A stretch of DNA of 64,000 nt from Alphaproteobacteria bacterium MarineAlpha5_Bin12 (GTDB lineage Bacteria > Pseudomonadota > Alphaproteobacteria > HIMB59 > GCA-002718135). The notes beneath the pieces are model-generated. The model ran no database searches. It had not been told where the DNA came from and was given only the letters and a program-made list of their open reading frames with translations. The stretch's first letter is position 1, and each line of letters begins with the position of its first letter. The stretch covers positions 7,079 through 71,078 of the forward strand of contig PTKS01000001.1 of the NCBI GenBank assembly GCA_002937855.1, read 5' to 3'. A program made the position numbers and the translations under genes. This document shows positions 14,175-42,362 of the stretch, in pieces.

Positions 14175-17100
14175 TTATTTATTTTCGTCAAGCATCATAA
14201 GGCTCGCATTACCGCCTGCTGCAGTAGTATTATAAGTAAATGTTTTTTCTGTAACGAATTGCATTAAATAATTTGGGCCCCCTGCTTTAGCTCCTGTTCC
14301 TGATAGTCCTCTTCCTCCAAACGGATGAACCCCCACAACAGCTCCTACAATATTCCTGTTTATGTAAATATTTCCAATTTTAGCATTATTTGAGATGAAG
14401 TTTATTGTATTGTCAATCCTGCTTTGAACCCCAAGTGTAAGTCCGTAATTTAAATTATTAATATCTTTTACAAGCTTTTCAAGTTCAACTGCCTTATATT
14501 TTATAACATGAATAACTGGTCCAAAAATTTCTTTCTTTAAATCTTTTAAGTTTTCTATTTTTAATAATGTAGGTTTGGTAAAATTACCTTCTAAACTAAT
14601 TTCATTTTTATTGCGCGACAATAAATTCATATTATTTTCTTGAATATGATTTTCAATATTATTTTTTGAATCCTCATCTATTACTGGTCCAATATCAGTT
14701 TTTAATTTTCTTGGATCTCCTATTTCTATTTTTTGTAATGCACCTTCTAGCATTTTAATTGTATTCTCATAAACTTCTTCTTGTATAGCCATTATTCTTA
14801 ATGCAGAACATCTTTGACCTGAAGATCCAAAACCAGATTCTATAGCATCATCAACAACTTGTTCTGTCAAAGCTGAAGAGTCTACAATCATTACATTTAA
14901 ACCACCTGTTTCAGCTGTAAATGATATAATCTCACCTTCTCTTTCATTAATTTTATTTTGAATATGTTTTGCTGTTTCATTAGAACCTGTAAATACTACA
15001 CCTTTAATTTTTTGATTTGCTATAACTTTATTTCCAACTTCTGGCCCATTTCCTAAAACAAGTTGAAGTGCCTCACTTGGCACACCTGCTTTTAAGAAAA
15101 GTTTCATAATAATATTTCCTATGATCGATGTTTGTTCTGCAGGTTTAGTAATTACAGTATTTCCAGCTAATAGTGGAGCTACAATCTGTCCTACAAAAAT
15201 TGCTATAGGAAAATTCCAAGGACTAATTGTAAAGTATACACCCTTTCCTTCATAAGTTAATTCATTGATTTCTCCAGTTGGTCCATTTAATTTTATTGGA
15301 TTTTTAAAAATTTTTTTAGCTTCACTTGAATAATAATAACAAAAATCAATAGCTTCTCTAATATCGTTCATAGAGTCATTTATTGTTTTGCCAGCTTCAA
15401 GTACACAAATTCTTATTAATTCTTCCTGATTGTTTTCAAGTAGCTCTGCAAAATTATTTATAACTTTAGCTCTTTCATCAACATCCGTAGCGTTCCATTC
15501 GTTATAATAATTTGAAGCAATATCTATAGCTTCACTAATTTTGTTACTATCAATAAATGAAACTTTACCAAGCTTAATTGATTTATCAAATGGTGAGTAG
15601 ACATCAAAAGTTTTATCTTTAATCTCTTTTCCATTTATAATTGAGAAAGCTTCATAGTCATAATTTTTTTTGTTTTCTGAAAAAATATCAATAAATTTTT
15701 TTCTAGTTTTTTCATCATTAATATCATATCCCATTGAATTTTTTCTTTCTGGTTCATACATATCTGGAGGCAGTGGAATTTTTGGGTTATATAATTTATC
15801 ATAACCTTTTATAATTTTAATAGGATCTTCTAAAATATCATCAACTGTTAAACTTGGATCACTAACCTTATTTATAAAGGAAGTATTCGCACCATTTTCA
15901 AGTAATCTCCTCATAAGATAAGGTAATAAATCATCATAGTTACCAACCGGAGCATAAATTCTGCATTTTGGATAATTATCTTTTGCATAACTGTTAAAAT
16001 ATTCATGTATTTGTCCAGCCATTCCATGAATTCTCTGGAATTCAAATATCTTATCCTTTCCAATTTCTTCTATGAATGAAATTGAATACGCATTATGAGA
16101 GGCAAACTGGGGGAAAATAGTATCTTGTTTCTCTAGTAATTTTAACGCACAAGCCATCCAAGATAAATCTGTAAAGGACTTTCTTGTATAAACTGGATAA
16201 TTTGGAATTCCTAATTCTTGTGCAATTTTAACCTCTGTGTCCCAATAAGCACCTTTTACCAATCTTACATTAATTTTTTTATTTGTTTCTTTAGCAAGTT
16301 TATCAAGCCAATCTACTAAAGTGAAGCATCTTTTCTGATAAGCTTGAACAGCAAGACCGAGTCCATTCCAATTTTTTAAACTTGAGTCATTCATCATTAA
16401 TTCTAAGAGCATCAATGAAAGAACTAATCGGTAATTTTCTTCTGCATCTATACACAATTGGATATTGTATTCGCTTGCTAACTTGCACAATGATATTAAT
16501 TTTGGCAATAATTCTTTTTTTAAATCTTCAAATTTGTTTCTTTCATATCTAGGATGCAAAGCTGATATTTTAATTGAAACACCATTTGATTGCGTTATAT
16601 CATCATTATTCTTTAATTCTTTGCCTACAGCATGTATAGAATTTTTATAATCTTCAAAATATCTATCCCCATCTTCCATAGTTCTTGCACCTTCTCCTAA
16701 CATATCAAAAGAAAAAAGGTTTTTTGAATATAGATTGGTATTAGTATATTTTATACTTTCTTTCATTGTGGGCTTAAAAACAAATTGACTTGCTAAAATT
16801 GTAACAGCTTTTTTTACTGCAATTCTCAAAACTGGCTCAGAAGTTTTTTTTAATAAACTTTTATAATTTTCTTCTAAATGAGTTTTGTTTTCTTGTTTTT
16901 TATCTAAAATTTTACCAGTTAAAAAAAAGCTCCATGAAGAAGCATTTACAAAGACGCCTTTATCAAAACCGGCATGTTTTGACCAATCAGCAGATGTGAA
17001 TTTGTCTTCTAAAAGTCTATCAATTGTTTTGTTATCTGGTATTCTTAAAAGAGCTTCAGCTAAGCATAATAGAACTGTACCCTCTTTAGTATTTAATTGG

Positions 17101-17294
17101 TATTCTTGTAAGAGATTTTCTATCGGAGATTTTATTTTTGATTGATTTCTAGCATAATCTACAATCTCCTCAGATCTATTTCTTACTTTATCTTTTACTA
17201 ATTTATATTTGGGCTCTAAATATTTTAATAATATTTTTACAACCTGTTCTTCAGGCATATATTGAACATTATTTAATTCACTAAAATCAACCAT
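14175..17294 (-). CDS. putA: Bifunctional proline dehydrogenase/P5C dehydrogenase
   Basis: CLAEALLRIPD, SFDMLGE, RLVKGAYWD, RRLLENGANTSF, SPWNFP, GQRCSALR, NTTAAGGNASL. Confidence 0.97.
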   Translation of the reverse strand: MVDFSELNNVQYMPEEQVVKILLKYLEPKYKLVKDKVRNRSEEIVDYARNQSKIKSPIENLLQEYQLNTKEGTVLLCLAEALLRIPDNKTIDRLLEDKFTSADWSKHAGFDKGVFVNASSWSFFLTGKILDKKQENKTHLEENYKSLLKKTSEPVLRIAVKKAVTILASQFVFKPTMKESIKYTNTNLYSKNLFSFDMLGEGARTMEDGDRYFEDYKNSIHAVGKELKNNDDITQSNGVSIKISALHPRYERNKFEDLKKELLPKLISLCKLASEYNIQLCIDAEENYRLVLSLMLLELMMNDSSLKNWNGLGLAVQAYQKRCFTLVDWLDKLAKETNKKINVRLVKGAYWDTEVKIAQELGIPNYPVYTRKSFTDLSWMACALKLLEKQDTIFPQFASHNAYSISFIEEIGKDKIFEFQRIHGMAGQIHEYFNSYAKDNYPKCRIYAPVGNYDDLLPYLMRRLLENGANTSFINKVSDPSLTVDDILEDPIKIIKGYDKLYNPKIPLPPDMYEPERKNSMGYDINDEKTRKKFIDIFSENKKNYDYEAFSIINGKEIKDKTFDVYSPFDKSIKLGKVSFIDSNKISEAIDIASNYYNEWNATDVDERAKVINNFAELLENNQEELIRICVLEAGKTINDSMNDIREAIDFCYYYSSEAKKIFKNPIKLNGPTGEINELTYEGKGVYFTISPWNFPIAIFVGQIVAPLLAGNTVITKPAEQTSIIGNIIMKLFLKAGVPSEALQLVLGNGPEVGNKVIANQKIKGVVFTGSNETAKHIQNKINEREGEIISFTAETGGLNVMIVDSSALTEQVVDDAIESGFGSSGQRCSALRIMAIQEEVYENTIKMLEGALQKIEIGDPRKLKTDIGPVIDEDSKNNIENHIQENNMNLLSRNKNEISLEGNFTKPTLLKIENLKDLKKEIFGPVIHVIKYKAVELEKLVKDINNLNYGLTLGVQSRIDNTINFISNNAKIGNIYINRNIVGAVVGVHPFGGRGLSGTGAKAGGPNYLMQFVTEKTFTYNTTAAGGNASLMMLDENK

Positions 17295-17309
17295 TTTAAA
17301 ATTTAAAAA

Positions 17310-18971
17310 CTACTTATTATAATTATAATATTTTTTTGCTTGATTTAAAGTGACGTATTCATTCTTTATATCACTTTCAATTAAATCAATATCTCTTTCA
17401 TGTGGATTTCCATAGCCGCCCCCACTTGCTGTATGAATTCTCACCACATCTTCTGGATCTAATGTTAAACCTGTTACAACAGAATACTTTTCTACTTTCC
17501 CATCTTTTCTTATAACCTCAATATAATTAGATCCTCCTTCATTCCCGCCTTCAAGCGACCAAGGCAAGCTTTTTGACCTTGTGTAAGCAACTGAAACCCA
17601 AGCATTTTTAGATCGAATTCTATAATCCATTACTATACCTTTACCTCCTCTGAATTTACCTTCACCACCATCTTCATCATTTAAACGCATTTGATCAACA
17701 TAAACCCCATGCCTTGCTTCTGATATTTCAGCTGGAGTATTGAATGTGTCTCCATGAAAAGCAGAAAAATTAGCGTTGAGACCATCAGAAACTGAACTAG
17801 CGCCCCAACCACCTACTTGTGGTTCTATAATTATAAAAGTTGCTCCAGTGTCCGGATGCTGTCCACCCATAAAAGTTCCGCAAATTGATGCAAAACTACC
17901 TGCTGTAGCTTTATCTGGATTTAGGTTTGAAATAGTTTTCCATACTAGATCATATGATCTTATATCTGTTTCATAATATATACCTTGTGCAGCAGGTCTT
18001 GTAGGATTAAACATAGATCCTTCGTCACATAAAACTTTTAATGGTCTAAATGTACCCGCATTACAAACAAAGTCACCAGAAGTAATTGCTTTGAATGCCA
18101 TTTGAGCCGAAACTACAGTACCATCATAAGATGCATTATTCGGTCCCTCATCTTGCTTAGGATTGTTTCTTAAATCAACTATAAATTCCTTATTAGTAAT
18201 AGTTACATCTACTTGGATTTTCCTTCCATCATCAAGCAAATCCTCTCCATGAAATGTTCCTTTTGGTAAATTTTGTAATGATTCTAGTGAATTTTTTTCT
18301 CCATAATCCATAAATAATTGAACTGATTGCTTAAATGTTTCTTTGCCATATTTTATAGCTATATCTTTTATCCTTTTTTCACCTACTCTTATTGATGCAA
18401 TAGCTGCCCACATATCTCCTAAAGTATATTGTGGAACTCTGCTATTCGCAGTAATAATATCTATTACTGATTGAATAGGTTTACCCTCTTCAATCATTTT
18501 TATTACTGGTAACTGAAGTCCTTCTTGGAATATTTCTTTAGCATCTGCCGAAATTCCTCCTGGAGCCATTCCTCCTAAATCAGGCCAGTGAGCAATATTT
18601 GCTGTCCAAGCTATTCTTTCTCCATCTACAAATATTGGCATTACTACTATAACATCATTTAAATGGGTAACACCTCCATTGTAGGGATCGTTTGTAGCAA
18701 AAACATCACCTTCTTTTATATCTTCTATTTTATATTTTTTTATAACTGCCTGCGCTGCTTTATCACACATTGCTATGAAAGCAGGAATACCTGCACCTGA
18801 AGCGGCTATGTTACCATCCGTATCAGTAACCGCAGTTCCAAAATCTAAAACTTCATATATTATTGAACTCATAGCTGTTTTTCTCATTGCAACAAACATT
18901 TCATCACACGCAGCTTGTAAAGAACTTTGGATAATTTCAGTAGTTATTGGATCTAAATTAACTTTAGTCAT
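17310..18971 (-). CDS. Hydantoinase B/oxoprolinase family subunit (B1)
   Basis: DPIT, NDPYNGGVTHLND, AHWPDLGG, EIFQEG, GGGYG. Confidence 0.92.
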   Translation of the reverse strand: MTKVNLDPITTEIIQSSLQAACDEMFVAMRKTAMSSIIYEVLDFGTAVTDTDGNIAASGAGIPAFIAMCDKAAQAVIKKYKIEDIKEGDVFATNDPYNGGVTHLNDVIVVMPIFVDGERIAWTANIAHWPDLGGMAPGGISADAKEIFQEGLQLPVIKMIEEGKPIQSVIDIITANSRVPQYTLGDMWAAIASIRVGEKRIKDIAIKYGKETFKQSVQLFMDYGEKNSLESLQNLPKGTFHGEDLLDDGRKIQVDVTITNKEFIVDLRNNPKQDEGPNNASYDGTVVSAQMAFKAITSGDFVCNAGTFRPLKVLCDEGSMFNPTRPAAQGIYYETDIRSYDLVWKTISNLNPDKATAGSFASICGTFMGGQHPDTGATFIIIEPQVGGWGASSVSDGLNANFSAFHGDTFNTPAEISEARHGVYVDQMRLNDEDGGEGKFRGGKGIVMDYRIRSKNAWVSVAYTRSKSLPWSLEGGNEGGSNYIEVIRKDGKVEKYSVVTGLTLDPEDVVRIHTASGGGYGNPHERDIDLIESDIKNEYVTLNQAKKYYNYNK

Positions 18972-21040
18972 TTATTACCTTGAATTGTAATATGTAAATT
19001 AGCGTATTCGTCAATTTTACATTTTTGATTTGGAAAAATAACCACGGTAGTACTTGGATCCTCAACAATTGCTGGGCCTGAAAATTCCATGTCTGGTTCT
19101 AAAAGATTAAAATCATATATTTTTGCTGGATGTGTTCCCATTTCATCGAAATCTACTTCTCTAGTTTCTTTAATTGTTTTTTCAATAGAGACACCAGTTT
19201 TTTTTCTTTTTTGAAGATCAGGTTTATCTATTTTTGCAAAAGCTACTAAATGAAATTGGATCATATCCACTTGGCTATCAAGTCTATATGTAAATTCTTT
19301 TTCATATTGATCATGAAATAAATTTTTAATTTCATCAATAGATTTGTCTGAATATTCTTCATTTTTTAATGGGATCTCTACTGAATGATCTTGGCCTAAA
19401 TATCTAAAACTTCCAAATCTTTTAAAAGTAATTTTATCTTTTAATATATTCTCTTTTTCAAAACTTTTTAAAGCATCATTTTCCATTTTATTAAATGTTT
19501 CATTTAAAATACCAAGTGCATTCTTATCCATTGTAAGTAATCTTGTTAAAATATAATCTCTTCTTAAATCACTCATAAGCATACCCCATGCAGAAAAAAC
19601 TGATGAATTAACAGGTACTATGACTTTTGGTATGTTTAACTCTCTTGCCAATGAAGTTGCATGCATCCCACCCCCTCCACCGAAGGCAACTAATGTAAAT
19701 TCTCTGGGATCATATCCTCTGTTAACAGATACTAATTTTAATGCATTAATCATATTGTTATTTGCTATTCGAATTATCCCTCTAGCTAATTCTGTATTCG
19801 AAAATTTTAGTTTTTCAGAAAGATTATTTGAATATTTTTTTACTGATTCCATATCTGCTTTAATTGCGCCTCCACAAAAAAAGTTTGGGTTTATTCGATT
19901 TGTTATTAAATTTGCATCCGTAGTTGTTATTGATTTACCACCCTTCCCATAGGATACTGGACCTGGATCAGCCCCTGCACTTTGCGGACCTACATGTAAT
20001 TTATTAAAATTATCTACCCAAGCAATACTTCCTCCGCCATTTCCTATTTCTACTATATCTACTACAGGCAACATAACTGGATATCCTGCAGAAAGTCGGT
20101 TCTTTTCAATCCAGTAATTCGTATTAATTTTTACATTTCCATTCTCTATTAAAGAACATTTTGCTGTTGTTCCTCCTACATCAAGTGTAATTATGTTGTT
20201 TTCTCCAATTAATTTTCCCAATTCTGCTGCTCCAAGTACGCCGCTTGTAGGGCCTGATTCTATCATTGTTAAAGGAATTTTTTTTGTAGAATCAAATGTA
20301 TCTATGCCACCGTTAGATTGCATCACGTAAGGATTTGATTTGAAATTAGAATTAATTAATTTAGTATTTAATTTATCTAAATAATTTCTTGCAATAGGCT
20401 TCACATATGCGCATAAAGCAGTAGTATTAGTTCTTTCGTATTCTCTCCATTCCCTAGTAATATGATGAGATGCTACTACATCAATTTCTGGCCAATATTT
20501 ATTTATATGCTCAACTACTTTTTGTTCATGAGAAGAATTAGCATAAGAATGAATCAAGCAAACTGCAATTGATTTTACATTATTATTTTTAAAATGATCT
20601 AAAATATTATTGAGATTCGACAAATCAATGGGAGCCAGTTCTTTTCCTAAAAAATCAATTCTTCCAGGAACTTCAGCTCTCAAATATCTTTCTACAAAAG
20701 GTTTAGGTTTCTTATACCTTAAATTAAAAAAATCTGGTCTATCCCCTCTTGCGATTTCAATTGAGTCTCTAAATCCTTTTGTTGTTATCAAGCCAGTTAA
20801 AACACCTTTTCTCTCAGTAATCGAATTAATTACAACAGTTGTTCCATGAGCAAAAAAACTTGACTTAGATATATCTACATTTGATTTATTTATAGAATCA
20901 AAAACACCTATTTCATAACTACTTGGAGTAGTATCACTTTTAGCAGTTTTAATACTTAGGGCTTTTCCTGATTTTTCATCAATTTCAAAATAGACTAAAT
21001 CAGTAAAAGTTCCCCCAACATCTGTAGCTATTCTCAACAT
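18968..21040 (-). CDS. Hydantoinase A/oxoprolinase family ATP-binding subunit (A1)
   Basis: DVGGTFTD, HGTT, REYER, SGP, DVGGT, GPQSAGADPGP, FSAWG. Confidence 0.92.
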   Translation of the reverse strand: MLRIATDVGGTFTDLVYFEIDEKSGKALSIKTAKSDTTPSSYEIGVFDSINKSNVDISKSSFFAHGTTVVINSITERKGVLTGLITTKGFRDSIEIARGDRPDFFNLRYKKPKPFVERYLRAEVPGRIDFLGKELAPIDLSNLNNILDHFKNNNVKSIAVCLIHSYANSSHEQKVVEHINKYWPEIDVVASHHITREWREYERTNTTALCAYVKPIARNYLDKLNTKLINSNFKSNPYVMQSNGGIDTFDSTKKIPLTMIESGPTSGVLGAAELGKLIGENNIITLDVGGTTAKCSLIENGNVKINTNYWIEKNRLSAGYPVMLPVVDIVEIGNGGGSIAWVDNFNKLHVGPQSAGADPGPVSYGKGGKSITTTDANLITNRINPNFFCGGAIKADMESVKKYSNNLSEKLKFSNTELARGIIRIANNNMINALKLVSVNRGYDPREFTLVAFGGGGGMHATSLARELNIPKVIVPVNSSVFSAWGMLMSDLRRDYILTRLLTMDKNALGILNETFNKMENDALKSFEKENILKDKITFKRFGSFRYLGQDHSVEIPLKNEEYSDKSIDEIKNLFHDQYEKEFTYRLDSQVDMIQFHLVAFAKIDKPDLQKRKKTGVSIEKTIKETREVDFDEMGTHPAKIYDFNLLEPDMEFSGPAIVEDPSTTVVIFPNQKCKIDEYANLHITIQGNK

Positions 21041-22758: not shown

Positions 22759-22761
22759 AAA

Positions 22762-29491: not shown

Positions 29492-29493
29492 AT

Positions 29494-31970: not shown

Positions 31971-32460
31971 TAAAATTTTACTTAATTTAATAAATATTAC
32001 AAGATATGGCAGTTCTGAGTATTTTTATAAGAAATTAGACCATGCAATTAAAAAGATTATAGGACACAAACTATTTACTTTAATGGTTAATGACAAAAAA
32101 GTAAAATATGTTGAAAGAGTCTATTCTAACAATAGAAAAATCTATCCATTATTAGGAACGAAACCAATACCAAAAAATAATTGGACAAAAAGAGTCTATA
32201 GTCAAAAAAAAGAATTTTTAGCTAAAGATTTTAATGAAATAAAAAAACTTTTTTTTGATTACGAAATAATTGAATCCTTAGGATGTGGTTCAATAATTAA
32301 TGTGCCAGTTATTTATAATAAAAAGATCTTAGGTACGTTAAATATTTTACATAAAGAAAAATTTTATAACAAAAGTAGCATAAAAAAAATTCTTCCCTAC
32401 ACCCAGCTTTTAGCTCCGTATTATTTAGCTCATCAACAAAAAATGAAAAAAAAGAAATAA
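31951..32460 (+). CDS. Stand-alone GAF-domain protein
   Basis: GHKLFT..ERVYS..YP..GTKP..FFDYEIIESLGCGSIINVPV..GTLNILH pattern of small GAF proteins. Confidence 0.75.
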   Translation: MRSNQNNKILLNLINITRYGSSEYFYKKLDHAIKKIIGHKLFTLMVNDKKVKYVERVYSNNRKIYPLLGTKPIPKNNWTKRVYSQKKEFLAKDFNEIKKLFFDYEIIESLGCGSIINVPVIYNKKILGTLNILHKEKFYNKSSIKKILPYTQLLAPYYLAHQQKMKKKK

Positions 32461-32468
32461 TTTTTTTA

Positions 32469-33675: not shown

Positions 33676-34440
33676 ATGAATAAAAATTTTTCACTTAACA
33701 AAAAAGTTGCTCTTATTACAGGTTCTAGTTCAGGAATTGGTGCGGAAATTGCAAAAGAATTTTCCAAAGCTGGAGCAAAAGTTTATTTAATTGCTCGTAA
33801 CGAAAAAAAATTAAAAGCACTTACCATTAAATTAAATAAGAAATATAATACTAATAATAGATTTATAGTTTGTGATATTAATAATTATGAAGAATTTAAA
33901 AGAAAAATACTTAAAATCAAAAATATTGATATTTATGTTAACAATGCTGGTATGAATATACCTAAACATTTTTTTAATATAAAAATTAGTGAATTAGATG
34001 AAATTATTAATTTAAATATGAAATCAATGTTTGTAACTACACAAATTATAGTTAGAAAAATGATTAAAATGAAAAATTATAAGAAAAAAAATTTGAATAT
34101 TATTAATATATCTTCAACCCTGGGTCATGTGGGCTCACTAAATAGAACAGCGTACAGTATGACTAAGTTTGGTGTGGAAGGTTTTACCAAATCTCTAGCA
34201 GTTGACCTTGCAAATTATAATATTAGAGTGAATGCAATTGCTCCAACTGCAATTTTAACACCTATGCTAAAAAAATATTTAACTAAAGATTTTCGAAAAA
34301 AAACCGTTTCTAATATTTTAATGAAAAGAATAGGTTCGGTAGACGATGTAGCTTCTACTGCAGTTTTTTTAGCTTCAAATGCAGCTAAATTTATTACTGG
34401 TACATCAATATTGGTTGATGGAGGATGGACAGCAAAATAA
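33676..34440 (+). CDS. Short-chain dehydrogenase/reductase
   Basis: TGSSSGIG, NNAG, YSMTK, VDGGW. Confidence 0.92.
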   Translation: MNKNFSLNKKVALITGSSSGIGAEIAKEFSKAGAKVYLIARNEKKLKALTIKLNKKYNTNNRFIVCDINNYEEFKRKILKIKNIDIYVNNAGMNIPKHFFNIKISELDEIINLNMKSMFVTTQIIVRKMIKMKNYKKKNLNIINISSTLGHVGSLNRTAYSMTKFGVEGFTKSLAVDLANYNIRVNAIAPTAILTPMLKKYLTKDFRKKTVSNILMKRIGSVDDVASTAVFLASNAAKFITGTSILVDGGWTAK

Positions 34441-36194: not shown

Positions 36195-38215
36195 TTAATT
36201 TTTTTTATTATTAAATTTCCCATTTTATCAAGCACTAATGAATAATTAGGAGGGACAACAGTTGTTGCGCTCTCTTCCTCGATCACTAATGGGCCTTTAT
36301 AAATATCATGTTTTTTAATTAAACTTCTATTAATTATTTGAGTTTTAAATTTTTTGCCATTAAAAATTATTTCTCTATTTTGTTTTGATGTTTTATTTAT
36401 AATATTCTCTTTCTTCATTTTAGAATAATCAATAGGTTTTTCTACTTTGCCAATAGCAATTAATCTTAAGTTAATTATTTCAACAGGAGCATCTGGGGTT
36501 GAGTGTCCATATTTTTGCTTATAGGTTTTATGAAAATTATTATTTATTTTATTTAAATCTATTTTATTGTCTATGGATATATTTACATAATATTCTTGAC
36601 CTATGTACCTCATATCTGCCGTTTGATAAAAAGTCATTTGTTTTTCTTTAACTCCTTCACTTATAAGTAACTTTGAAGCTTCGTGAACTAATTGATCATA
36701 CTCTTTCTGTAATTCTTTTTTCTTAACTTCAGATAAAATAGTAAAAAAATTTTTATTTAAATCTCTTCTAATATCTGTTTGTAACATTCCCCAGGCTGAA
36801 AAAGTCCCAGGATTAGGAGGTACAACAATTTCTTTAATCTCTAATTCTTCAGCAATCCAAACAGCATGCATTGATCCTGCTCCGCCAAAAGCAACGAGAG
36901 AGAAATCTCTTGGATCTATCCCATGCTTTACTGTAATAGTTCTAATTGCATCGGCCATTTTAGCATTAATAATTGATAAAATACCTTCTGCTAATTGGGT
37001 GTTTGTCATATTCAATTTTTTTGACATTTGTTTTAAAACTTTTTTTGACTCTTGTATTTGAAGACCCATCCATCCACCTAATTTTGAATCAGGTCCAATA
37101 CGACCTAAATATAAGTTAGCATCTGTCACGGTCGGGTTTGAACCTCCTTTTCCATAACAAGCTGGGCCAGGTTCGGCTCCAGCGCTTTGTGGACCAACTC
37201 TCAACGCACCAGCTTCAAGCCAAGCAATTGAACCTCCACCAGCCCCTATGGTATGGATGTCAACGAAAGGTATCAATAATGGCAAAGACTCCTGCTCCGT
37301 CTCATTAGTAATATTTGGCTTTCCATCTATAATTAAACTCATATCAAATGATGTGCCCCCCATATCAACACATATTAAATTAGGCTTATTTGTTATTTTT
37401 GATAAAGCAGCACCTCCTATTGTACCGCCAACCGGACCAGACAATAGTGTTTGTACTGGATTTTTTATTGCTGTTTTAGCTCTAATTATCCCCCCATTTG
37501 ATTGCATTATGTAAAGAGGTTTTTTATATTTATTTTTCAAAAGTTCTTTTTCTAAATGAGCAAGATAATTATTTACTACAGGGCCAACATAAGCATTCAT
37601 AACAGCAGTTGATGATCTTTCATATTCTCTCCATTCTCTAGCAACCTCATGTGAAAGAGAAATAACAACTTTGTCACCTATTCTTTTTTTTAATATTTTT
37701 TTTGCTAATACTTCATGTTTTGGATTTATATATGAATGTAAAAAACAAACTGCTACAGCAGTAATATTTTCTTTGTTTATTTTTTTGATTATTGGATCGA
37801 AATCTTTCTGATTTATTGTATTAATTATTTTTCCTTCCCAAGATATTCTTTCTTTTACTTCATGCACGTCAATTTTATTTGCTAATTGTTTTGGTTTTTT
37901 ATATTGAACTTCATAAAGGGTTTTTCTATCACCTCTTGCGATTGTATAAGTATCACTAACTCCAGCTGTCATTATTAATAGAACTCTAGCACCTTTTCTT
38001 TCTAAAAAGGCATTTAGACCTACGGTAGTCCCATGAACAAGAAATTCAATATTTTTTAAATCTAATTTGAATTTATTTATTCCATTCATCACAGCTATAG
38101 CTGGATTTTTTGGAGTTGAAAGAACTTTTGATGTAAAAGTTTTTTTACTTTCATACTCTTGTATTACAAAATCAGTAAATGTTCCCCCTATATCAGCAGC
38201 TATTCTATATTTCAT
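36191..38215 (-). CDS. Hydantoinase A/oxoprolinase family ATP-binding subunit (A3)
   Basis: Start set at MKYRIAADIGGTFTD; HGTT, REYER, SGP, DMGGTSFD. Confidence 0.92.
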   Translation of the reverse strand: MKYRIAADIGGTFTDFVIQEYESKKTFTSKVLSTPKNPAIAVMNGINKFKLDLKNIEFLVHGTTVGLNAFLERKGARVLLIMTAGVSDTYTIARGDRKTLYEVQYKKPKQLANKIDVHEVKERISWEGKIINTINQKDFDPIIKKINKENITAVAVCFLHSYINPKHEVLAKKILKKRIGDKVVISLSHEVAREWREYERSSTAVMNAYVGPVVNNYLAHLEKELLKNKYKKPLYIMQSNGGIIRAKTAIKNPVQTLLSGPVGGTIGGAALSKITNKPNLICVDMGGTSFDMSLIIDGKPNITNETEQESLPLLIPFVDIHTIGAGGGSIAWLEAGALRVGPQSAGAEPGPACYGKGGSNPTVTDANLYLGRIGPDSKLGGWMGLQIQESKKVLKQMSKKLNMTNTQLAEGILSIINAKMADAIRTITVKHGIDPRDFSLVAFGGAGSMHAVWIAEELEIKEIVVPPNPGTFSAWGMLQTDIRRDLNKNFFTILSEVKKKELQKEYDQLVHEASKLLISEGVKEKQMTFYQTADMRYIGQEYYVNISIDNKIDLNKINNNFHKTYKQKYGHSTPDAPVEIINLRLIAIGKVEKPIDYSKMKKENIINKTSKQNREIIFNGKKFKTQIINRSLIKKHDIYKGPLVIEEESATTVVPPNYSLVLDKMGNLIIKKIK

Positions 38216-38220
38216 AAGAA

Positions 38221-39153
38221 TTATCTTTTTCTTCCTGCTGTTAATGCGACTGCCCCAAAAATAATCACACCTGTTGTCACATCCTTCCAAAAAGGATCAG
38301 CATTTAAAATATTAAATCCGTTATTTATTAATGCTAAAACCATAACTCCAGCAACTGACCTCCATACCGCACCTTCTCCCCCATATATACTAGTCCCTCC
38401 GAGTATAACTGCAGCTATAGCTTGTAATTCCATTCCTAGACCCGCTTGAGGCTGACCTAGTGATATTCTAGAAACTTGAATTGCCCCAGCTATTCCAGCT
38501 GCAAAACCAGTTAATGCAAAAGTATATATCGTTACTAAATTTGCCCTTATTCCAGCTAATTTTGATGCCTCTTCGTTCCCACCAACTGCAAAGACATTTC
38601 TTCCAAATGTAGTTCGATTAAGAATTATAGTCATAATAATTGTAAATATAATCAATATAAAGATGGTAAAATGAATTCCGTATATTTTTCCTCGGCCAAG
38701 CCATATAAACTCTGGCATTCTAACAGGAATTAAAAATCCACCTGTAATCAAAATTGCTATACCTCGATATATTAAACTTGTTGCTATTGTGGCTAAAAAA
38801 GAGTGTACTCCTAAAGAAGTGATCAAAACACCATTAGTATATCCTAAAATTATTCCTATAATTGGAGCTAAAGCAAGCCCTAACAATGGATCAATATTTA
38901 CTGCTATCCATGCTGCCGCGCAACTTGCTACTCCAAATATTGATGCTGTAGAAAGGTCAAATCCACCAGCTATAATACACAATGTTAGTGCTGCTGCAAT
39001 AATAGCTAAAGGTGCATTTTGATTTAAAATATTCAACAAATTACGGGGAGATAAAAAAGCATCACTGGAAAAAGTTAATATTATCATTAACAATACAATA
39101 AGAATTAATACTGCGTACTCTCTGATAAAATTAACTACATTGTATCTTGTCAT
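38221..39153 (-). CDS. Sugar-type (RbsC-like) ABC transporter permease
   Basis: GGFDLS, FGRNVFAVGGNEEASKLAGI, ELQAIAAVILGGTS. Confidence 0.92.
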   Translation of the reverse strand: MTRYNVVNFIREYAVLILIVLLMIILTFSSDAFLSPRNLLNILNQNAPLAIIAAALTLCIIAGGFDLSTASIFGVASCAAAWIAVNIDPLLGLALAPIIGIILGYTNGVLITSLGVHSFLATIATSLIYRGIAILITGGFLIPVRMPEFIWLGRGKIYGIHFTIFILIIFTIIMTIILNRTTFGRNVFAVGGNEEASKLAGIRANLVTIYTFALTGFAAGIAGAIQVSRISLGQPQAGLGMELQAIAAVILGGTSIYGGEGAVWRSVAGVMVLALINNGFNILNADPFWKDVTTGVIIFGAVALTAGRKR

Positions 39154-39180
39154 CTTATAAATAAATTTTTGGTTTAAAAA

Positions 39181-39209
39181 AACTGGGCTTAAAAAAATTA
39201 AGCCCAGTT
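39181..39209 (-). terminator. Stem-loop after sugar-type binding-protein gene
   Basis: AACTGGGCTT...AAGCCCAGTT inverted repeat followed by a T tract on the minus strand. Confidence 0.78.
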
Positions 39210-39223
39210 ATTAAAAGGATATT

Positions 39224-40219
39224 TTATCCTTTCCATTCTCCTTTAAAATCAGGAAATTTATCCAATACAGATTTATTAATTAAACCTGGAACAGGTCCTC
39301 TTTCATCCATATTGATTTCTGATTCGAAAGATTCACCTCGAAGTTTTTTTATAACAGCTTCAGTTCCATATAATCCTAGACTATAAGGAAAGTCACCTTT
39401 GGTATAATCCCATCTTCCTGATCTAACCATATCAAGACCAATAGCCGAAGCTCCACCTCCCATTAAAAAGAGATCTTCAACGACATATCCTGCGTCTTCA
39501 AGTGCAATATCAGCTCCGACCAAATGTTGATCAGCATTTGATAATATAACGTGAATTTTTGTACCCGCGTTTGCTTGAAGAGCATCCTGAACCCCTGTTA
39601 AAGATGTATCGGGATCATAATTACCCATTACTTCTGCTACTACTTTTATGTTGCTATGACCGCTTAAGATTTTATTGAATGTTTCTAATCTTAAGTTATC
39701 AAAAGGATATATTTTTTGTCCAATAATGATTATCACATTACATGGATCAATTCCTTTACAACCTTCATTTACAACAGCATCAGCTTGCCAAGTAGCTCCT
39801 TCAATAACGGGATGTATTACTGTAGCAGTAATACCTCCAATTTGATCTTTCATAGTAGTTAAATCTGGACCAATTGGAAACAACGTTGTAGACGTTGGAA
39901 TCCCTGCATCAATTGCTTCTTTTACAAAACTTGCTATTCCAACTGAATCATTTGGAAGAACAACAAATCCATCAAATTCTTGTGAAGCAATTGCATCTTC
40001 TATTTGTTGAGCTTGAACAACAGCGTTAAACTCACCATTAAACATTTTACTTGTAGCCCCCATTTCTTTTGCTTTTGCAGCAACACCTTCGTAAACAGCT
40101 TGATTAAAACCATTTTCACTTGAAGCCGCAAAAAAAGCTATATGCTCACCTTTAGCATATAAAGAATTAAAATTAAAAAGAGCACCAAATAAGATAAAAA
40201 TTGAAAATAAAATTTTCAT
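39224..40219 (-). CDS. Sugar-type (RbsB-like) ABC substrate-binding protein
   Basis: AGGAGG RBS before ATG 40219, signal peptide, QAQQIEDAI, AIDAGIP periplasmic-binding-protein pattern. Confidence 0.85.
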   Translation of the reverse strand: MKILFSIFILFGALFNFNSLYAKGEHIAFFAASSENGFNQAVYEGVAAKAKEMGATSKMFNGEFNAVVQAQQIEDAIASQEFDGFVVLPNDSVGIASFVKEAIDAGIPTSTTLFPIGPDLTTMKDQIGGITATVIHPVIEGATWQADAVVNEGCKGIDPCNVIIIIGQKIYPFDNLRLETFNKILSGHSNIKVVAEVMGNYDPDTSLTGVQDALQANAGTKIHVILSNADQHLVGADIALEDAGYVVEDLFLMGGGASAIGLDMVRSGRWDYTKGDFPYSLGLYGTEAVIKKLRGESFESEINMDERGPVPGLINKSVLDKFPDFKGEWKG

Positions 40220-40432
40220 AAATTCCTCCTTAAAATCGCATACTAAGATATCCTTAATAAAAAAGTTATCACAGTAGGGAATTGAAAACAATTAAAAATT
40301 TTAACAATTAGTATAACTAATTATTAACAATAATTTGAAAATTGCTATTAAAAACTACAATTTATCTAATTTAATTTGATTTTTTTAATAGAAAGTGTGA
40401 GTATTTGGTCTTATTACATTTTTGTTAATAAA

Positions 40433-41182
40433 ATGAATGATGTCTTAAAATTAAAAAATATTTCAAAAAATTTTGGAGGGGTTGAGGCTTTAGCAGGTAT
40501 TGATTTAAATTTGTCAAAGGGTGAGTGTCTGGGTTTAATGGGAGATAATGGGGCAGGAAAATCTACATTAATCAAAATTATAGCTGGAAATTATTTACCT
40601 TCAGGAGGAAAAATATTTTTAAACGAAAATGAAGTTATATTTAACAAGCCTGTGGACGCACAACAAAAAGGCATAGAAGTAGTTTATCAAGATCTTGCGT
40701 TGTGCGATAATCTTAGAGCTTATGAAAATGTTTATTTAGGAAGATGGCTAGTAAAATTCAAAATTGGTCCATTTAGTTTTGTTGACTTTAAGAAAATGAA
40801 AGAAGAATCAAAAAATCTATTTAAAGAACTCAAATCAGATACTAGGTCCAATCAACTTGTCAAAACATTGTCTGGTGGACAAAAACAGGCTGTAGCTTTA
40901 TCTCGAACAAGATTATCTAATCCTGATATAGTTTTGATGGATGAGCCCACAGCTGCAATTAGCATAAAACAAGTTAAAGAAGTATTACAATATATTTTAA
41001 AACTTAAAGAAAAAAATATTGCAATAATTTTAATCAGTCACAGAATGATGGATGTATTTGAAGTTTGTGATAGAGTGATGGTATTAAGAAGAGGTTCGAA
41101 AGTATCTGACAAAAAAATCACAAACACTAACCCAGAAGAAGTTACTGGTTTAATAACAGGTGCTATAGATACCTCTTTTTAG
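40433..41182 (+). CDS. Sugar-type ABC transporter ATPase (single nucleotide-binding domain)
   Basis: GDNGAGKST, VYQDLALCDNL, LSGGQKQ, MDEPTAA, ISH; start set at MNDVLK. Confidence 0.92.
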   Translation: MNDVLKLKNISKNFGGVEALAGIDLNLSKGECLGLMGDNGAGKSTLIKIIAGNYLPSGGKIFLNENEVIFNKPVDAQQKGIEVVYQDLALCDNLRAYENVYLGRWLVKFKIGPFSFVDFKKMKEESKNLFKELKSDTRSNQLVKTLSGGQKQAVALSRTRLSNPDIVLMDEPTAAISIKQVKEVLQYILKLKEKNIAIILISHRMMDVFEVCDRVMVLRRGSKVSDKKITNTNPEEVTGLITGAIDTSF

Positions 41183-41223
41183 TTTTTGCTGGTTTTTTTG
41201 TAAGGAAATAGTATATTAAAAAA

Positions 41224-42030
41224 ATGAACAACAAACCGCTAAAAATTATGTATCTAAGTCCCGTAGGAGTAGATAGCTTAGATGGACTTTTTGCTGAAAT
41301 GGTTAAGGACAGTAAGGATCCTGATACAGAAGTTCATATCACATCTTTAAAAGAAGATAATGGAAGTTTTTCACATATTGAATTTAGATCTTATGAAGCT
41401 ATGGCGACTTCTGGAATTATTAATGCAACTGTCAGTGCAGCAAAAGAAGGATTTGATGCTTTAGCAATTGGGTGCTTTTATGATACTGCATTGCATGATT
41501 CTAGAGAAGTATCTGGAGATATGGTAGTAGTTGCCCCATGTCACTCTTCTTGTGAAATTGCTCTAAGTTTGGCAAATAATTTTGGAATTATTGTTGGCCG
41601 TAGGAAATGGGTTCATCAAATGAAAGGTAATGTAATTGAATATGGATATGCAGATAAACTTGCTGGCTTTTATGATGTGGGATTAGGTGTGGATGACTTT
41701 CAGGTAGATCATCAAAGAACAGTTAACCTTCTAATTGATGCTGCAAAAAAAGCTGTAGATAAAGATTATGCCGAGTCAATTATATTAGGTTGTACTGCTG
41801 AATTTGGTTTTTATAAAACTTTGCAAGAAGAAATTGGAGTGCCTGTTATTGATCCTTCTTTAGCTGCATTAAAAAAAGCGGAGCATCATGCCAATTTAAA
41901 AAGAAAATTTAATTTAATTCCTAGTAGAAAATGGAGTTGTGAATCACCAACAAAAAAAGAAATTGAAAAATTTAATATGTTTCATGACACAGAGCCCTTT
42001 GGCAATAGAATAGTGATTCCAGCAAATTAG
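41224..42030 (+). CDS. Hydantoin racemase / Asp-Glu racemase family protein
   Basis: Two catalytic-Cys motifs IGCFYD and ILGCT; GVPVIDP. Confidence 0.88.
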   Translation: MNNKPLKIMYLSPVGVDSLDGLFAEMVKDSKDPDTEVHITSLKEDNGSFSHIEFRSYEAMATSGIINATVSAAKEGFDALAIGCFYDTALHDSREVSGDMVVVAPCHSSCEIALSLANNFGIIVGRRKWVHQMKGNVIEYGYADKLAGFYDVGLGVDDFQVDHQRTVNLLIDAAKKAVDKDYAESIILGCTAEFGFYKTLQEEIGVPVIDPSLAALKKAEHHANLKRKFNLIPSRKWSCESPTKKEIEKFNMFHDTEPFGNRIVIPAN

Positions 42031-42358: not shown

Positions 42359-42362
42359 AGAT

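What the first reader, a model, noticed from the sequence alone, without database searches (positions are those of the whole stretch)
14175..42030. 28-kb cyclic-amide catabolic block: seven hydantoinase/oxoprolinase subunits with prolidase, racemase, two importers and PutA (candidate cyclic-dipeptide or lactam pathway)
Seen: 3 A and 4 B subunit genes, a Dpp/Opp importer, a sugar-type importer, an M24 Xaa-Pro peptidase, a two-Cys racemase and an SDR. putA starts only 15 nt after B1 in the same A2-B2-A1-B1-putA run. Established: this family (N-methylhydantoinase HyuAB, 5-oxoprolinase, caprolactamase CapAB) opens stable cyclic amides using ATP. Hydantoin routes need an N-carbamoylase, and 5-oxoproline gives glutamate directly without PutA. 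No carbamoylase is visible in the window. Inference: proline-containing diketopiperazines or related lactams are imported by the peptide ABC system, ring-opened with ATP, split by the prolidase and fed to PutA, with the racemase handling D-forms. Keeping this many paralogs in a streamlined genome implies several distinct substrates from dissolved organic nitrogen.
Basis: partly seen in the sequence, partly recalled or inferred. Interest (0 to 1): 0.88.

Follow-up and report, generated by a model that had tools for sequence, protein, structure and literature searches.

The report
Cyclic-amide (likely cyclic-dipeptide) catabolic island
A 25-kb accessory gene island in a small marine bacterial genome combines an unusual peptide-type importer with several ATP-driven ring-opening enzymes, a proline-type peptidase and a cyclic-peptide-type epimerase, which makes it a strong, testable candidate for the still unknown pathway by which bacteria eat cyclic dipeptides.

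Summary
The gene content is as described: 3 A and 4 B hydantoinase/oxoprolinase subunits, a Dpp-type and a sugar-type ABC importer, an M24 peptidase, a two-Cys racemase, an SDR and PutA. The block is not one unit. putA is a backbone gene. B1 to the racemase (17310-42057) is an accessory island between putA and tRNA-Phe, missing from a collinear relative. Its core (Dpp importer, A2-B2, B3, A1-B1, a stand-alone GAF protein, M24) recurs in four relatives, and importer + A2-B2 (often + GAF-A1-B1) recurs across phyla. New support for a cyclic-peptide substrate: 28 of 28 SBP orthologues lack both DppA residues that anchor a linear dipeptide's termini. The racemase resembles the cyclic-peptide epimerase OpaE, not hydantoin racemases. 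Metal-competent M24B peptidases of three clades accompany the module. Other lineages attach hydroxyproline/pyrroline-carboxylate enzymes. No carbamoylase is linked. Against: PutA linkage is lineage-specific (0 of 63 outside loci), the racemase is variable, and no enzyme reaches a curated functional cut-off. Best reading (about 0.4): import, ATP-dependent ring opening and M24B cleavage of proline-containing diketopiperazines. The substrate is untested.

The parts
14175..17294 (-). putA (bifunctional proline dehydrogenase / P5C dehydrogenase). A backbone gene, now 15 nt downstream of B1.
   Evidence: NCBIfam NF008869 scores 1378 bits against a cut-off of 747. It is present between AAA and hisD in G004, which lacks the island.
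17310..18971 (-). B1, Hydantoinase_B subunit (metal/hydrolysis subunit).
   Evidence: Pfam 507 bits. D43/H103/D106/H128 correspond to the CapB metal tetrad.
18968..21040 (-). A1, Hydantoinase_A subunit (ASKHA ATPase).
   Evidence: Pfam. The DxGGTFTD, DxGGT and GAxPGP motifs are intact.
21040..22758 (-). B2, Hydantoinase_B subunit of the cross-phylum B2 clade.
   Evidence: Pfam 512 bits. Orthologues at 56-63% identity occur in 63 loci of other taxa. Tree.
22762..24801 (-). A2, Hydantoinase_A subunit.
   Evidence: Pfam. ATP motifs intact. Adjacent to B2 in 56 of 63 outside loci.
24888..26600 (+). B3, an orphan Hydantoinase_B that is a lineage-specific paralogue of B2 (59.5% identity), transcribed divergently from A2.
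   Evidence: Metal tetrad intact.
26804..28405 (+). Family-5 solute-binding protein of the Dpp-type importer. It is non-canonical because it lacks the DppA D408 and R355 anchors (Asn426; no Arg).
   Evidence: RNA-library contigs from 4 studies cover it.
28454..31970 (+). dppB, dppC, dppD and dppF (two permeases and two ATPases).
   Evidence: Pfam BPD_transp_1 x2, OppC_N, ABC_tran x2 and oligo_HPY.
31951..32460 (+). Stand-alone GAF-fold protein, an unexplained conserved module component.
   Evidence: AF2 pLDDT 92. Foldseek hits are GAF domains. Found in 5 of 5 module genomes and 0 of 36 others. Lies immediately upstream of A1-B1 in 10 of 11 outside loci.
32469..33566 (-). M24B (prolidase / Xaa-Pro peptidase-like) metallopeptidase.
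   Evidence: Pfam. Best PDB matches are prolidases and Xaa-Pro aminopeptidases. Ligands D224/D235/H299/E328/E342. Co-occurrence.
33676..34440 (+). SDR oxidoreductase, part of the variable unit. Not seen in the relatives' loci.
   Evidence: Pfam. Absent from L001-L009.
34476..36194 (-). B4, Hydantoinase_B subunit of the second unit.
   Evidence: Pfam. Groups with Trueperaceae B4-like genes.
36191..38215 (-). A4, Hydantoinase_A subunit. The ORF runs to TTG 38290, but the likely start is ATG 38215.
   Evidence: Pfam. The N-terminal extension does not align with the other A subunits.
38221..40291 (-). Sugar-type (BPD_transp_2 / Peripla_BP_4) permease and binding protein.
   Evidence: Pfam. The binding protein has only one weak PDB match, at 40 bits.
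40376..41182 (+). ABC ATPase of the second importer.
   Evidence: Pfam.
41224..42030 (+). [quoted passage not shown]
   Evidence: 9qbx OpaE matches at E 9e-28, against 2e-9 for hydantoin racemase. Cys84/Cys190 dyad and V14/L19/V124/G125 pocket (using residue roles from PMC12661438).
42058..42133 (-). tRNA-Phe(GAA), whose 3' end marks the right island boundary.
   Evidence: The G004 putA-hisD spacer aligns to 17086-17335 and 42057-42804.

Best explanation
Window 17310-42057 is an accessory catabolic island inserted between putA and tRNA-Phe. Its conserved core is a Dpp-type ABC importer with a non-canonical binding protein, two complete ATP-dependent lactam hydrolases (A2B2 and A1B1), a third hydrolytic subunit (B3, a B2 duplicate that probably shares A2), a stand-alone GAF protein and an M24B metallopeptidase. 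A variable second unit adds A4B4, a sugar-type importer, an SDR and an OpaE-like epimerase. Proposed mechanism: uncharged cyclic dipeptides (2,5-diketopiperazines, probably proline-containing) are imported. An A subunit activates a ring amide with ATP. A B subunit's metal site hydrolyses it to a linear Xaa-Pro-type dipeptide. The M24B peptidase then splits that dipeptide, and the proline goes to PutA, which here is read through from the A2-B2-A1-B1 operon. The epimerase inverts D-configured ring carbons while the substrate is still cyclic. Shown: gene content, intact catalytic motifs, island status, conserved linkage, loss of the dipeptide anchors and OpaE-like pocket residues. Inferred: the substrate, the order of steps, subunit sharing and the role of the GAF protein. 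My confidence that this is an ATP-dependent cyclic-amide catabolic island for an imported peptide-like compound is about 0.8. My confidence that the substrate is a diketopiperazine is about 0.4, and that is the figure given.
For: (1) Enzymes are competent. ATP motifs are intact in 4 of 4 A subunits, and the CapB metal tetrad is invariant in 5 of 5 B subunits (motif roles from PMC8453981). They match the hydrolase branch (N-methylhydantoinase 7hk5, caprolactamase 6yra) far better than the carboxylases. (2) Island status. G004 is collinear from proX to arginase but lacks 17310-42057, and a tRNA-Phe sits at the edge. (3) Linkage. The core is syntenic in G001, G021, G022 and G024. Among 63 outside loci, A2 sits next to B2 in 56, a dpp gene is present in 49, an SBP5 orthologue of at least 35% identity in 23, and GAF-A1-B1 in 10. 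(4) The SBP is not a linear-dipeptide binder. 28 of 28 orthologues lack DppA D408 and R355, while G032's M24-coupled SBP keeps both motifs (roles from PMC8566422). (5) The epimerase matches OpaE at E 9e-28 against 2e-9 for hydantoin racemase. It has the Cys84/Cys190 dyad and a hydrophobic pocket V14/L19/V124/G125 instead of N/D12, T/S118, T119. The same subfamily holds NozR of cyclo-D-Trp-D-Trp biosynthesis. (6) M24B peptidases with all five metal ligands, from three distinct clades, accompany the module. The island-type M24 is in 5 of 5 module genomes, and in 2 of 36 others it sits at another Dpp operon. (7) Proline-family enzymes are linked elsewhere. In A. ampelinum S4 these are a trans-3-hydroxy-L-proline dehydratase and an Ldh-family oxidoreductase. 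Across the fetched loci, Ldh_2 occurs in 7 and proline-racemase-superfamily genes in 6. (8) No carbamoylase is linked. (9) RNA-library contigs from 4 studies cover the SBP gene, with short contigs on A1, B2, A2, B3, dppD and M24. (10) Otzen et al. 2018 speculated that some genes annotated as 5-oxoprolinase may be 'cyclic dipeptide hydrolase genes' (passage read).
Against: No biochemical data exist for any of these proteins. All A and B subunits score far below the curated cut-offs (227-531 bits against 1000 for caprolactamase), and the M24 scores 205 against 630 for PepQ, so the functions are family-level only. putA is a backbone gene and is linked in 0 of 63 outside loci. In G022/G024 it is on the opposite strand, and in G021 it is a different 48%-identical type 14 kb away. 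M24-like genes lie within 10 kb in only 10 of 63 outside loci, all below 40% identical to the window's. The racemase orthologue is in only 2 of 5 module genomes and 8 of 63 outside loci, and here it is co-transcribed with the second (sugar-type) importer, not the Dpp one. Pocket position 25 is Leu, not the Tyr/Phe/Trp typical of OpaE-like enzymes. The SBP anchor mapping rests on alignments at about 22% identity. Characterised family members act on small mono-lactams, and no member is known to open a diketopiperazine. The need for two or three different enzymes and for a GAF protein is not explained by this model. RNA-library contigs do not prove transcription (tool caveat).
Confidence: 0.4

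Rival explanations
1. The substrates are other peptide-like or N-substituted lactams rather than diketopiperazines. Candidates are N-terminal pyroglutamyl peptides (ring opening gives Glu-Xaa, then M24 cleavage), amino-lactams of ornithine or lysine, or opine-like N-alkyl pyroglutamates as in agropinic acid catabolism.
For: The family opens 5-, 6- and 7-membered mono-lactams (PMC8453981; P. putida OplBA in bioRxiv 10.1101/2021.12.09.472016). The SBP matches the agropinic-acid binder AgaA as well as it matches DppA (81.8 vs 82-83 bits). B2 orthologues lie on Agrobacterium/Allorhizobium megaplasmids. Loss of the N-terminal anchor Asp would also suit an N-blocked peptide.
Against: A pyroglutamyl peptide keeps a free C-terminus, yet the Arg anchor is also lost in 28 of 28 orthologues. 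An OpaE-like epimerase with a hydrophobic pocket has no obvious role here. Opines are implausible for an oligotrophic marine genome. Hydroxyproline enzymes in other lineages fit imino-acid products better.
Confidence: 0.27
2. The block is a mosaic of unrelated functions. The Dpp importer and M24 handle ordinary linear Xaa-Pro peptides, and the A/B enzymes salvage internally formed lactams (5-oxoproline, pyrrolidone), so the proximity is only island packaging.
For: The island-type M24 occurs with a Dpp operon and without any hydantoinase in G025 and G032. The fifth A/B pair on C17 has no importer next to it. putA proximity can be explained by the insertion site.
Against: The window's SBP orthogroup is in one operon with A2-B2 across phyla (23 of 63 loci at 35% identity or more; for example L061 is a single-strand 13-gene operon). 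That SBP lineage lacks the linear-dipeptide anchors, whereas G032's M24-coupled SBP keeps them. GAF-like co-occurs 5 of 5 against 0 of 36.
Confidence: 0.15
3. This is a classical ATP-dependent hydantoin route (HyuAB type) acting on 5-substituted hydantoins, with the racemase as a hydantoin racemase and a distant or unconventional decarbamoylase.
For: The best solved match of A1 and B1 is an N-methylhydantoinase (7hk5). The racemase belongs to the allantoin/hydantoin-racemase subfamily. Ketogulonicigenium has an M20 aminoacylase after HyuB.
Against: No CN_hydrolase or M20 gene is in the window or beside any A/B pair; the genome's 3 and 5 hits are on other contigs. The racemase lacks the polar N/D12, T/S118, T119 substrate ligands of allantoin/hydantoin racemases. 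The Ketogulonicigenium M20 has 0 matches in the other loci. The importer is peptide-type.
Confidence: 0.08
4. The A/B proteins are ATP-dependent carboxylases (acetone/acetophenone-carboxylase-like) acting on a ketone.
For: Same superfamily. Caprolactamase itself needs bicarbonate (PMC8453981). Marine acetone carboxylase homologues exist (PMC13714315).
Against: Scores to Apc/Acx are much lower than to the hydrolases: B1 scores 74 and 50 bits against 232 and 178, and NCBIfam Apc models give 72-267 bits against cut-offs of 1250-1500. No gamma-subunit family was hit by any ORF scanned. The context is peptide import and a peptidase.
Confidence: 0.03

Closest known systems
Caprolactamase CapAB of Pseudomonas jessenii (PDB 6yra) and the valerolactam hydrolase OplBA of P. 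putida
   Same: Two-subunit ATP-dependent lactam hydrolase. The A subunit has the ASKHA ATP motifs and the B subunit the Asp-His-Asp-His metal site, all conserved here.
   Different: Only 227-531 bits against the 1000-bit equivalog cut-offs. Here there are 2 A + 3 B in the core, a stand-alone GAF partner gene, a dedicated ABC importer, an M24B peptidase and an epimerase. The substrate is presumably larger and peptide-derived.
N-methylhydantoinase (fused A-B protein, PDB 7hk5) and the HyuAB hydantoin-utilisation systems
   Same: The best-scoring solved relative of A1 and B1 (396 and 232 bits). Pairing with a racemase of the same subfamily is reminiscent of hyu clusters (that resemblance is recalled, not from a call).
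   Different: The subunits are separate. No carbamoylase is linked. The racemase pocket is hydrophobic and OpaE-like rather than hydantoin/allantoin-like.
OpaE (Aspergillus ustus, PDB 9qbx) and NozR epimerases acting on cyclised peptides
   Same: Full-length match at E 9e-28. The two-Cys dyad and hydrophobic residues at pocket positions 20, 131 and 132 are shared.
   Different: Those enzymes are biosynthetic and this one sits in a catabolic island. Position 25 is Leu rather than aromatic. The substrate is unknown.
E. coli DppABCDF dipeptide importer with DppA
   Same: Same five-gene architecture and SBP_bac_5 fold.
   Different: The SBP scores only 76 bits against DppA's 1005-bit NCBIfam cut-off and lacks the D408 and R355 termini anchors in 28 of 28 orthologues.
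Pyrococcus/Thermococcus-type prolidases (M24B; PDB 4rgz, 1wy2, 1pv9)
   Same: Best PDB matches over the full length (E 1e-58 to 5e-50). The five metal ligands and the HGxGxxxHExP block are conserved.
   Different: Below the PepQ equivalog cut-off (205 vs 630). It is an extra paralogue beside a roughly 30%-identical housekeeping M24, and it is always coupled to a Dpp-type importer.

Membership tests
ATP-dependent hydantoinase/oxoprolinase (lactamase) family | A subunit with the Hydant_A_N + Hydantoinase_A domains and the ASKHA ATP motifs (DxGGTxxD, DxGGT, GxxPGP) | tested here: met
   Pfam. The motifs are invariant in A1, A2, A4 and A5. Motif definitions come from PMC8453981.
ATP-dependent hydantoinase/oxoprolinase (lactamase) family | B subunit with the Asp-His-Asp-His metal site | tested here: met
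   D43/H103/D106/H128 are invariant in B1-B5 and map to CapB D41/H99/D102/H124.
ATP-dependent hydantoinase/oxoprolinase (lactamase) family | ATP-dependent hydrolysis of a cyclic amide | not testable with these tools
   Needs an enzyme assay.
Caprolactamase CapAB (NCBIfam equivalogs NF050156/NF050157) | Score at or above the curated cut-off of 1000 bits | tested here: not met
   The A subunits score 456-531 bits and the B subunits 227-282 bits.
Acetophenone/acetone carboxylase | NCBIfam Apc cut-offs (1250-1500 bits) and a small gamma-type subunit | tested here: not met
   Scores are 72-267 bits. No such family was hit by any ORF scanned.
Hydantoin-utilisation (Hyu) pathway | A linked N-carbamoyl-amino-acid amidohydrolase (M20 or CN_hydrolase) | tested here: not met
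   None in the window or beside the C17 pair. The genome's hits are on other contigs.
Hydantoin/allantoin racemase | Polar substrate ligands N/D12, T/S118, T119 (KpAllR numbering, PMC12661438) | tested here: not met
   V124 and G125 align with T118 and T119, and Val14 sits at the OpaE-Ile20 position, which the paper equates with KpAllR N/D12.
OpaE/NozR-like cyclic-peptide epimerases | Two catalytic Cys plus a hydrophobic pocket at OpaE positions 20/25/131/132 | tested here: met
   Cys84 and Cys190, with V14, V124 and G125 fitting the OpaE-like logo. L19 is hydrophobic but not aromatic. Activity was not tested.
DppA-type dipeptide-binding protein | Asp408 and Arg355 anchoring the dipeptide termini (PMC8566422) | tested here: not met
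   Asn426 and no Arg. Both are absent in 28 of 28 orthologues and present in G032's control SBP.
M24B Xaa-Pro peptidase (prolidase) | Five metal ligands (D, D, H, E, E) and closest similarity to prolidases | tested here: met
   D224/D235/H299/E328/E342 are invariant in 10 full-length sequences. The top PDB hits are prolidases and Xaa-Pro aminopeptidases. The NCBIfam PepQ cut-off is not reached (205 vs 630). Xaa-Pro specificity is untested.
PutA | NCBIfam equivalog NF008869 cut-off | tested here: met
   1378 bits against 747.
Genomic island | Absent from a collinear relative, next to a tRNA gene, with an integrase and flanking direct repeats | tested here: inconclusive
   Absence in G004 and the tRNA-Phe edge are met. 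No integrase and no att-like repeat were found.

The most novel reading that the evidence does not exclude
This module is the first genetically defined diketopiperazine catabolic system. It comprises a dedicated ABC importer whose binding protein has given up the charged anchors for linear dipeptides, ATP-dependent diketopiperazine hydrolases recruited from the oxoprolinase/hydantoinase family (with B subunits swapped on a shared A subunit to widen the substrate range), a GAF protein as a new accessory or regulatory subunit, a catabolic cyclic-dipeptide epimerase and a finishing prolidase. It is spread by horizontal transfer from marine oligotrophs to soil Actinomycetes, and so defines a previously unseen sink for a stable class of dissolved organic nitrogen and signalling molecules.
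Probability: 0.35. Interest if true: 0.88.

Novelty: new variant of a known kind. Interest (0 to 1): 0.72.

Why it matters
Cyclic dipeptides are abundant, protease-resistant natural products and peptide breakdown products. The enzymes that open them were still called unknown in Perzborn et al. 2013, and my phrase search for a named hydrolase found only one speculative sentence. If this widely distributed operon does that job, three things follow. A large set of genes annotated 'hydantoinase/oxoprolinase family' would gain a function. It would explain why a 1.5-Mb genome spends about 25 kb and ATP on this pathway. It would also supply enzymes for mild lactam and diketopiperazine hydrolysis. Several cultured, non-pathogenic carriers make the idea directly testable.

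Tried and rejected
Complex prediction of A1 with the GAF-like protein (alignments A5 and A6) gave no verdict, with a score of 0.00. I draw nothing from it.

Promoter and terminator scans of 14-28 kb were not above the shuffles: 56 promoter-like sites against a mean of 66, and 7 terminator-like sites against 6. They could not show how putA is transcribed.

Rfam at gathering thresholds found only two tRNAs and no riboswitch. No att-like direct repeat of the tRNA end was found; the repeats listed are paralogous coding stretches or AT-rich.

The ESM Atlas gave only 'hypothetical' or 'GAF' clusters for the GAF-like protein. The sugar-type binding protein had a single 40-bit PDB match, which is uninformative. 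The SBP's PDB ranking (unnamed SBP, HbpA, DppA, AgaA, all 82-91 bits) does not discriminate between ligands.

The idea that the GAF protein is a free methionine-sulfoxide reductase was dropped because no Cys is invariant. A creatinase reading of the M24 was dropped because all five metal ligands are present.

In the RNA libraries, stretches without contig cover (for example most of B1 and dppB/C) are not evidence of silence.

The careful tree search did not finish in the time allowed. The tree cited is the quick one with SH-aLRT support only, and it has several long branches.

Literature searches that found nothing on point:
- hydantoinase + SAR11
- hydroxyproline/pyrroline-2-carboxylate + hydantoinase
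- AEGEAN-169/HIMB59 + oxoprolinase/hydantoin
- the loose synonym search

Supplementary files were not consulted. The library lacks most subscription journals, so 'not in print' holds only for these searches.

Full report
OBSERVATION.
- putA (14175-17294, -)
- the run B1-A1-B2-A2 on the minus strand (17310-24801)
- a divergent orphan B3 (24888-26600)
- a five-gene Dpp/Opp-type importer (26804-31970)
- an M24 peptidase with a Creatinase_N domain (32469-33566, -)
- an SDR (33676-34440)
- B4-A4 with a BPD_transp_2 permease and a Peripla_BP_4 binding protein (34476-40291, -)
- an ABC ATPase (40376-41182)
- an Asp/Glu/hydantoin-racemase-family gene (41224-42030)

putA starts 15 nt after the B1 stop. 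One gene was missed: a 169-aa ORF (31951-32460) that overlaps the end of dppF. No carbamoylase-type gene is in the window. The genome's 3 CN_hydrolase and 5 M20 hits are all on other contigs. The genome (1.5 Mb, 20 contigs, about 30% GC) holds five B and four A genes. The fifth pair sits on another contig between a catalase-peroxidase and an EamA transporter.

ISLAND AND BACKBONE. In G004, a same-family genome without any Hydantoinase_B gene, the order is proX-EamA-EamA-GBBH-Aldh-TauD-IMPase-AAA-putA-hisD-hisG-murA-ArsP-DtxR-Lrp-arginase. This is collinear with the window but lacks everything from B1 to the racemase. The G004 putA-hisD spacer aligns to window 17086-17335 and 42057-42804. A tRNA-Phe (42058-42133, -) sits exactly at the right edge. 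So 17310-42057 (about 24.7 kb) is an accessory island next to the 3' end of a tRNA gene. It has no integrase and no att-like repeat. putA is a backbone gene. Because only 15 nt separate it from B1, it has probably become dependent on read-through from the island operon. That is inference: the promoter scan was uninformative.

THE ENZYMES. All four A subunits keep the three ATP-site motifs, and all five B subunits keep the four metal ligands defined in caprolactamase (roles from PMC8453981, passages read). That includes the orphan B3, which therefore looks active.

B2 and B3 are 59.5% identical, while all other A/A or B/B pairs are 30-47% identical. In a quick maximum-likelihood tree (SH-aLRT only, careful search unfinished, several long branches), the B2 and B3 clades of the window's lineage are sisters (support 93) inside a cross-phylum B2 clade (support 100). 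B1 orthologues form a second clade, B4 groups with Trueperaceae genes, and B5 is a long branch beside B1.

The best solved relatives are an N-methylhydantoinase (7hk5) and caprolactamase (6yra). The acetone and acetophenone carboxylases score far lower. No subunit approaches a curated functional cut-off. These are members of the ATP-dependent lactamase family with unknown substrates.

CONSERVATION. Hydantoinase_B was found in 5 of 24 same-family genomes and 0 of 16 genomes of the sister family. Four of those genomes (G001, G021, G022, G024) share the core M24 - GAF-like - dppFDCB - SBP - B3 <> A2-B2-A1-B1 at 58-97% protein identity. The A4/B4 unit with the sugar-type importer was seen only in G001. 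The SDR was seen in none of them.

A profile of B2/B3 retrieved 77 loci from named genomes. Fourteen are from the same lineage (titles 'MarineAlpha5', 'uncultured Alphaproteobacteria' SAGs); these are not independent of the G handles. The other 63 are at 56-63% identity in Rhodobacterales, Kaistia, Devosia, Pleomorphomonas, Aureimonas, Gaiellales, Solirubrobacterales, Trueperaceae, Flavobacteriaceae and others.

Within +/-10 kb of those 63 loci:
- an A2-like gene in 56
- any dpp gene in 49
- an SBP at least 35% identical to the window's in 23
- a GAF-like gene in 10, each immediately upstream of an A1 orthologue followed by B1 (10 of the 11 loci with such an A1)
- a racemase homologue in 8 (3 at 54-58% identity, each beside an M24)
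- an M24-like gene in 10 (all below 40% identity)
- putA in 0

In Pleomorphomonas carboxyditropha (L061) one strand carries SBP-dppBCDF-A2-B2-B'-GAF-A1-B1-racemase-M24 behind a divergent XRE regulator, which is again two A and three B subunits.

ACCESSORY PROTEINS.

(a) SBP. DppA fixes a dipeptide by Asp408 (alpha-amino group) and Arg355 (alpha-carboxylate), which 'ensures a specificity for dipeptides' (PMC8566422, passages read). In phmmer and MAFFT alignments with E. coli DppA, the island SBP has Asn426 at the Asp position and no Arg. None of 28 orthologues has the Asp (N4, Q2, L5, R5, T2, V10) or the Arg. Those 28 are the window's, three from G001/G021/G024, and 24 from the loci (2 of them own-lineage, L025 and L027). 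Before counting I dropped hits below 39% identity or shorter than 480 aligned residues, and nine near-duplicate own-lineage loci. As a contrast, the SBP of G032's Dpp operon keeps both motifs exactly. The alignment is at about 22% identity, so this is good but not conclusive evidence that the ligand lacks free termini.

(b) Epimerase. Its best solved relative is OpaE, a fungal enzyme that inverts a C-alpha inside a cyclised non-ribosomal peptide (E 9e-28, full length). Hydantoin and allantoin racemases score E 2e-9 or worse. Cys84 and Cys190 align with the OpaE dyad. The pocket residues V14, L19, V124 and G125 follow the hydrophobic OpaE-like pattern rather than the polar N/D12, T/S118, T119 of allantoin/hydantoin racemases (residue roles from passages of PMC12661438). 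That paper also places NozR, of cyclo-D-Trp-D-Trp biosynthesis, in this subfamily.

(c) M24. The top solved matches are archaeal and bacterial prolidases and Xaa-Pro aminopeptidases. The five metal ligands (D224, D235, H299, E328, E342) are invariant in the 10 full-length module-linked M24 proteins, so it is not creatinase-like. These M24s fall into three clades: the window's own lineage, an alphaproteobacterial clade and a Trueperaceae clade. They are only 27-32% identical between clades, so the activity was recruited repeatedly. The island-type M24 (47% identity or more) is in 5 of 5 module genomes and 2 of 36 others. Most genomes also have a separate M24 that is about 30% identical. In those two other genomes (G025, G032) the island-type M24 is adjacent to, or embedded in, another Dpp operon, so this clade is a peptidase for imported peptides.

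(d) GAF-like protein. The model is confident (pLDDT 92, pTM 0.87) and the best Foldseek matches are ligand-binding GAF domains. There is no invariant Cys, but invariant polar residues include R56, S59, Y65, K71, D103, N117 and N131. It is found in 5 of 5 module genomes and 0 of 36 others. No characterised member of the enzyme family is reported with such a partner in the papers I read. Its role is unexplained.

THE PROLINE LINK. Within the lineage, full-length putA is in 5 of 5 module genomes. Among the 36 others, it is in 2 as a full-length gene and in 2 as fragments at contig ends. It lies near the module in different arrangements: co-directional after B1 in the window and G001, tail-to-tail in G022/G024, and a different 48%-identical type in G021. 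That pattern fits either functional pull or a hot spot. Outside the lineage it is never linked.

Other lineages attach different imino-acid enzymes, however. [quoted passage not shown] Ketogulonicigenium has XRE, Ldh-family, HyuA, HyuB and an M20 aminoacylase. Across the fetched loci, Ldh_2 homologues occur in 7 and proline-racemase-superfamily genes in 6, two of them at 63-75% identity to the dehydratase. I found no paper connecting hydantoinase-family genes with hydroxyproline catabolism (search listing).

EXPRESSION. Of 24 runs listed, 20 hold part of 21040-28405, from 13 studies. Six are RNA libraries. I laid four RNA libraries from four studies on 14175-34174. All four cover the SBP gene nearly end to end (for example 26807-28391 and 26894-28389). 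Short low-depth contigs lie on A1, B2, A2, B3, dppD and M24. These are contigs, and the runs were found with this stretch, so this shows presence in RNA libraries and not proven transcription.

INTERPRETATION. The best-supported reading has five steps: import of an uncharged, peptide-derived cyclic amide; ATP-dependent ring opening; cleavage of the resulting Xaa-imino-acid bond by M24B; proline oxidation by PutA; and epimerisation at the cyclic stage. Proline-containing diketopiperazines fit every component. Otzen et al. 2018 raised the possibility that genes annotated as oxoprolinase may be cyclic dipeptide hydrolases (one sentence). Perzborn et al. 2013 tested only ATP-independent D-hydantoinases and called the ring-opening enzymes unknown (passages). 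A six-phrase search for a named diketopiperazine hydrolase returned only the Otzen paper.

What the model does not explain is why two to three different enzymes and a GAF protein are needed, and what the second importer carries. The rivals are listed separately: other blocked or N-substituted lactams, a functional mosaic, a hydantoin route and a carboxylase.

LIMITS. There is no biochemistry. Family-level annotation only. The relatives are not independent. The flanks were capped at 10 kb. The SBP and epimerase residue mappings rest on distant alignments.

Noticed in passing
window 3903-12502: A glycine-betaine-type ABC importer (OpuAC SBP, permease, ATPase), two EamA transporters, a gamma-butyrobetaine-hydroxylase-like TauD protein, an aldehyde dehydrogenase and a second TauD form a block that is conserved and collinear in G004. 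It looks like a quaternary-amine (carnitine/butyrobetaine-type) catabolic cluster.
   Followed up: partly
window 52539-55727: A rhodopsin gene (52539-53279), a LysE exporter, an M19 membrane dipeptidase (53954-55045) and a cyclophilin-type prolyl isomerase (55056-55727) lie 10 kb downstream of the island.
   Followed up: no
L010 (G000 contig C17) 9080-15894: The genome's fifth B/A pair (B5 11256-12920, A5 12920-14956, in B-then-A order) sits between a catalase-peroxidase and an EamA transporter, with an arginase-family gene and a HalD-like 2OG oxygenase upstream. No importer or peptidase is nearby.
   Followed up: partly
L024 and L028: In two loci, A2-B2 orthologues (80-82% identity) are flanked by sugar-type (Peripla_BP_4/BPD_transp_2) importers instead of the Dpp system, so the same enzyme clade is paired with either transporter class. 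L028 is titled as a Methanobacteriota archaeon MAG although its gene is 80% identical to the alphaproteobacterial one, so the contig is probably mis-binned.
   Followed up: no
L059 13768-15837: The A1 orthologue of this Kaistia MAG has an internal stop at codon 188. This is a pseudogene or an assembly error.
   Followed up: partly
L034-L038, L053, L061: Orphan B genes are common. Rhodobacterales loci carry a B1-type gene before the SBP with no A1. L053 and L061 carry an extra B1-type gene after B2. A B:A ratio above 1 therefore recurs in unrelated lineages and is unexplained.
   Followed up: partly
window 42134-42606: The stretch between tRNA-Phe and hisD is conserved with G004 (72% identity over 781 aligned positions including flanks). 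It holds only ORFs shorter than my 90-aa listing threshold, which I did not annotate.
   Followed up: no
L001 (G021) 1-10451: G021 carries a second sugar-type importer with an A-like gene (26% identical to A4), the 86%-identical racemase and a 48%-identical putA with an Lrp-type neighbour, all on the M24 side of the core. The same putA-Lrp pair occurs without the module in G013.
   Followed up: partly
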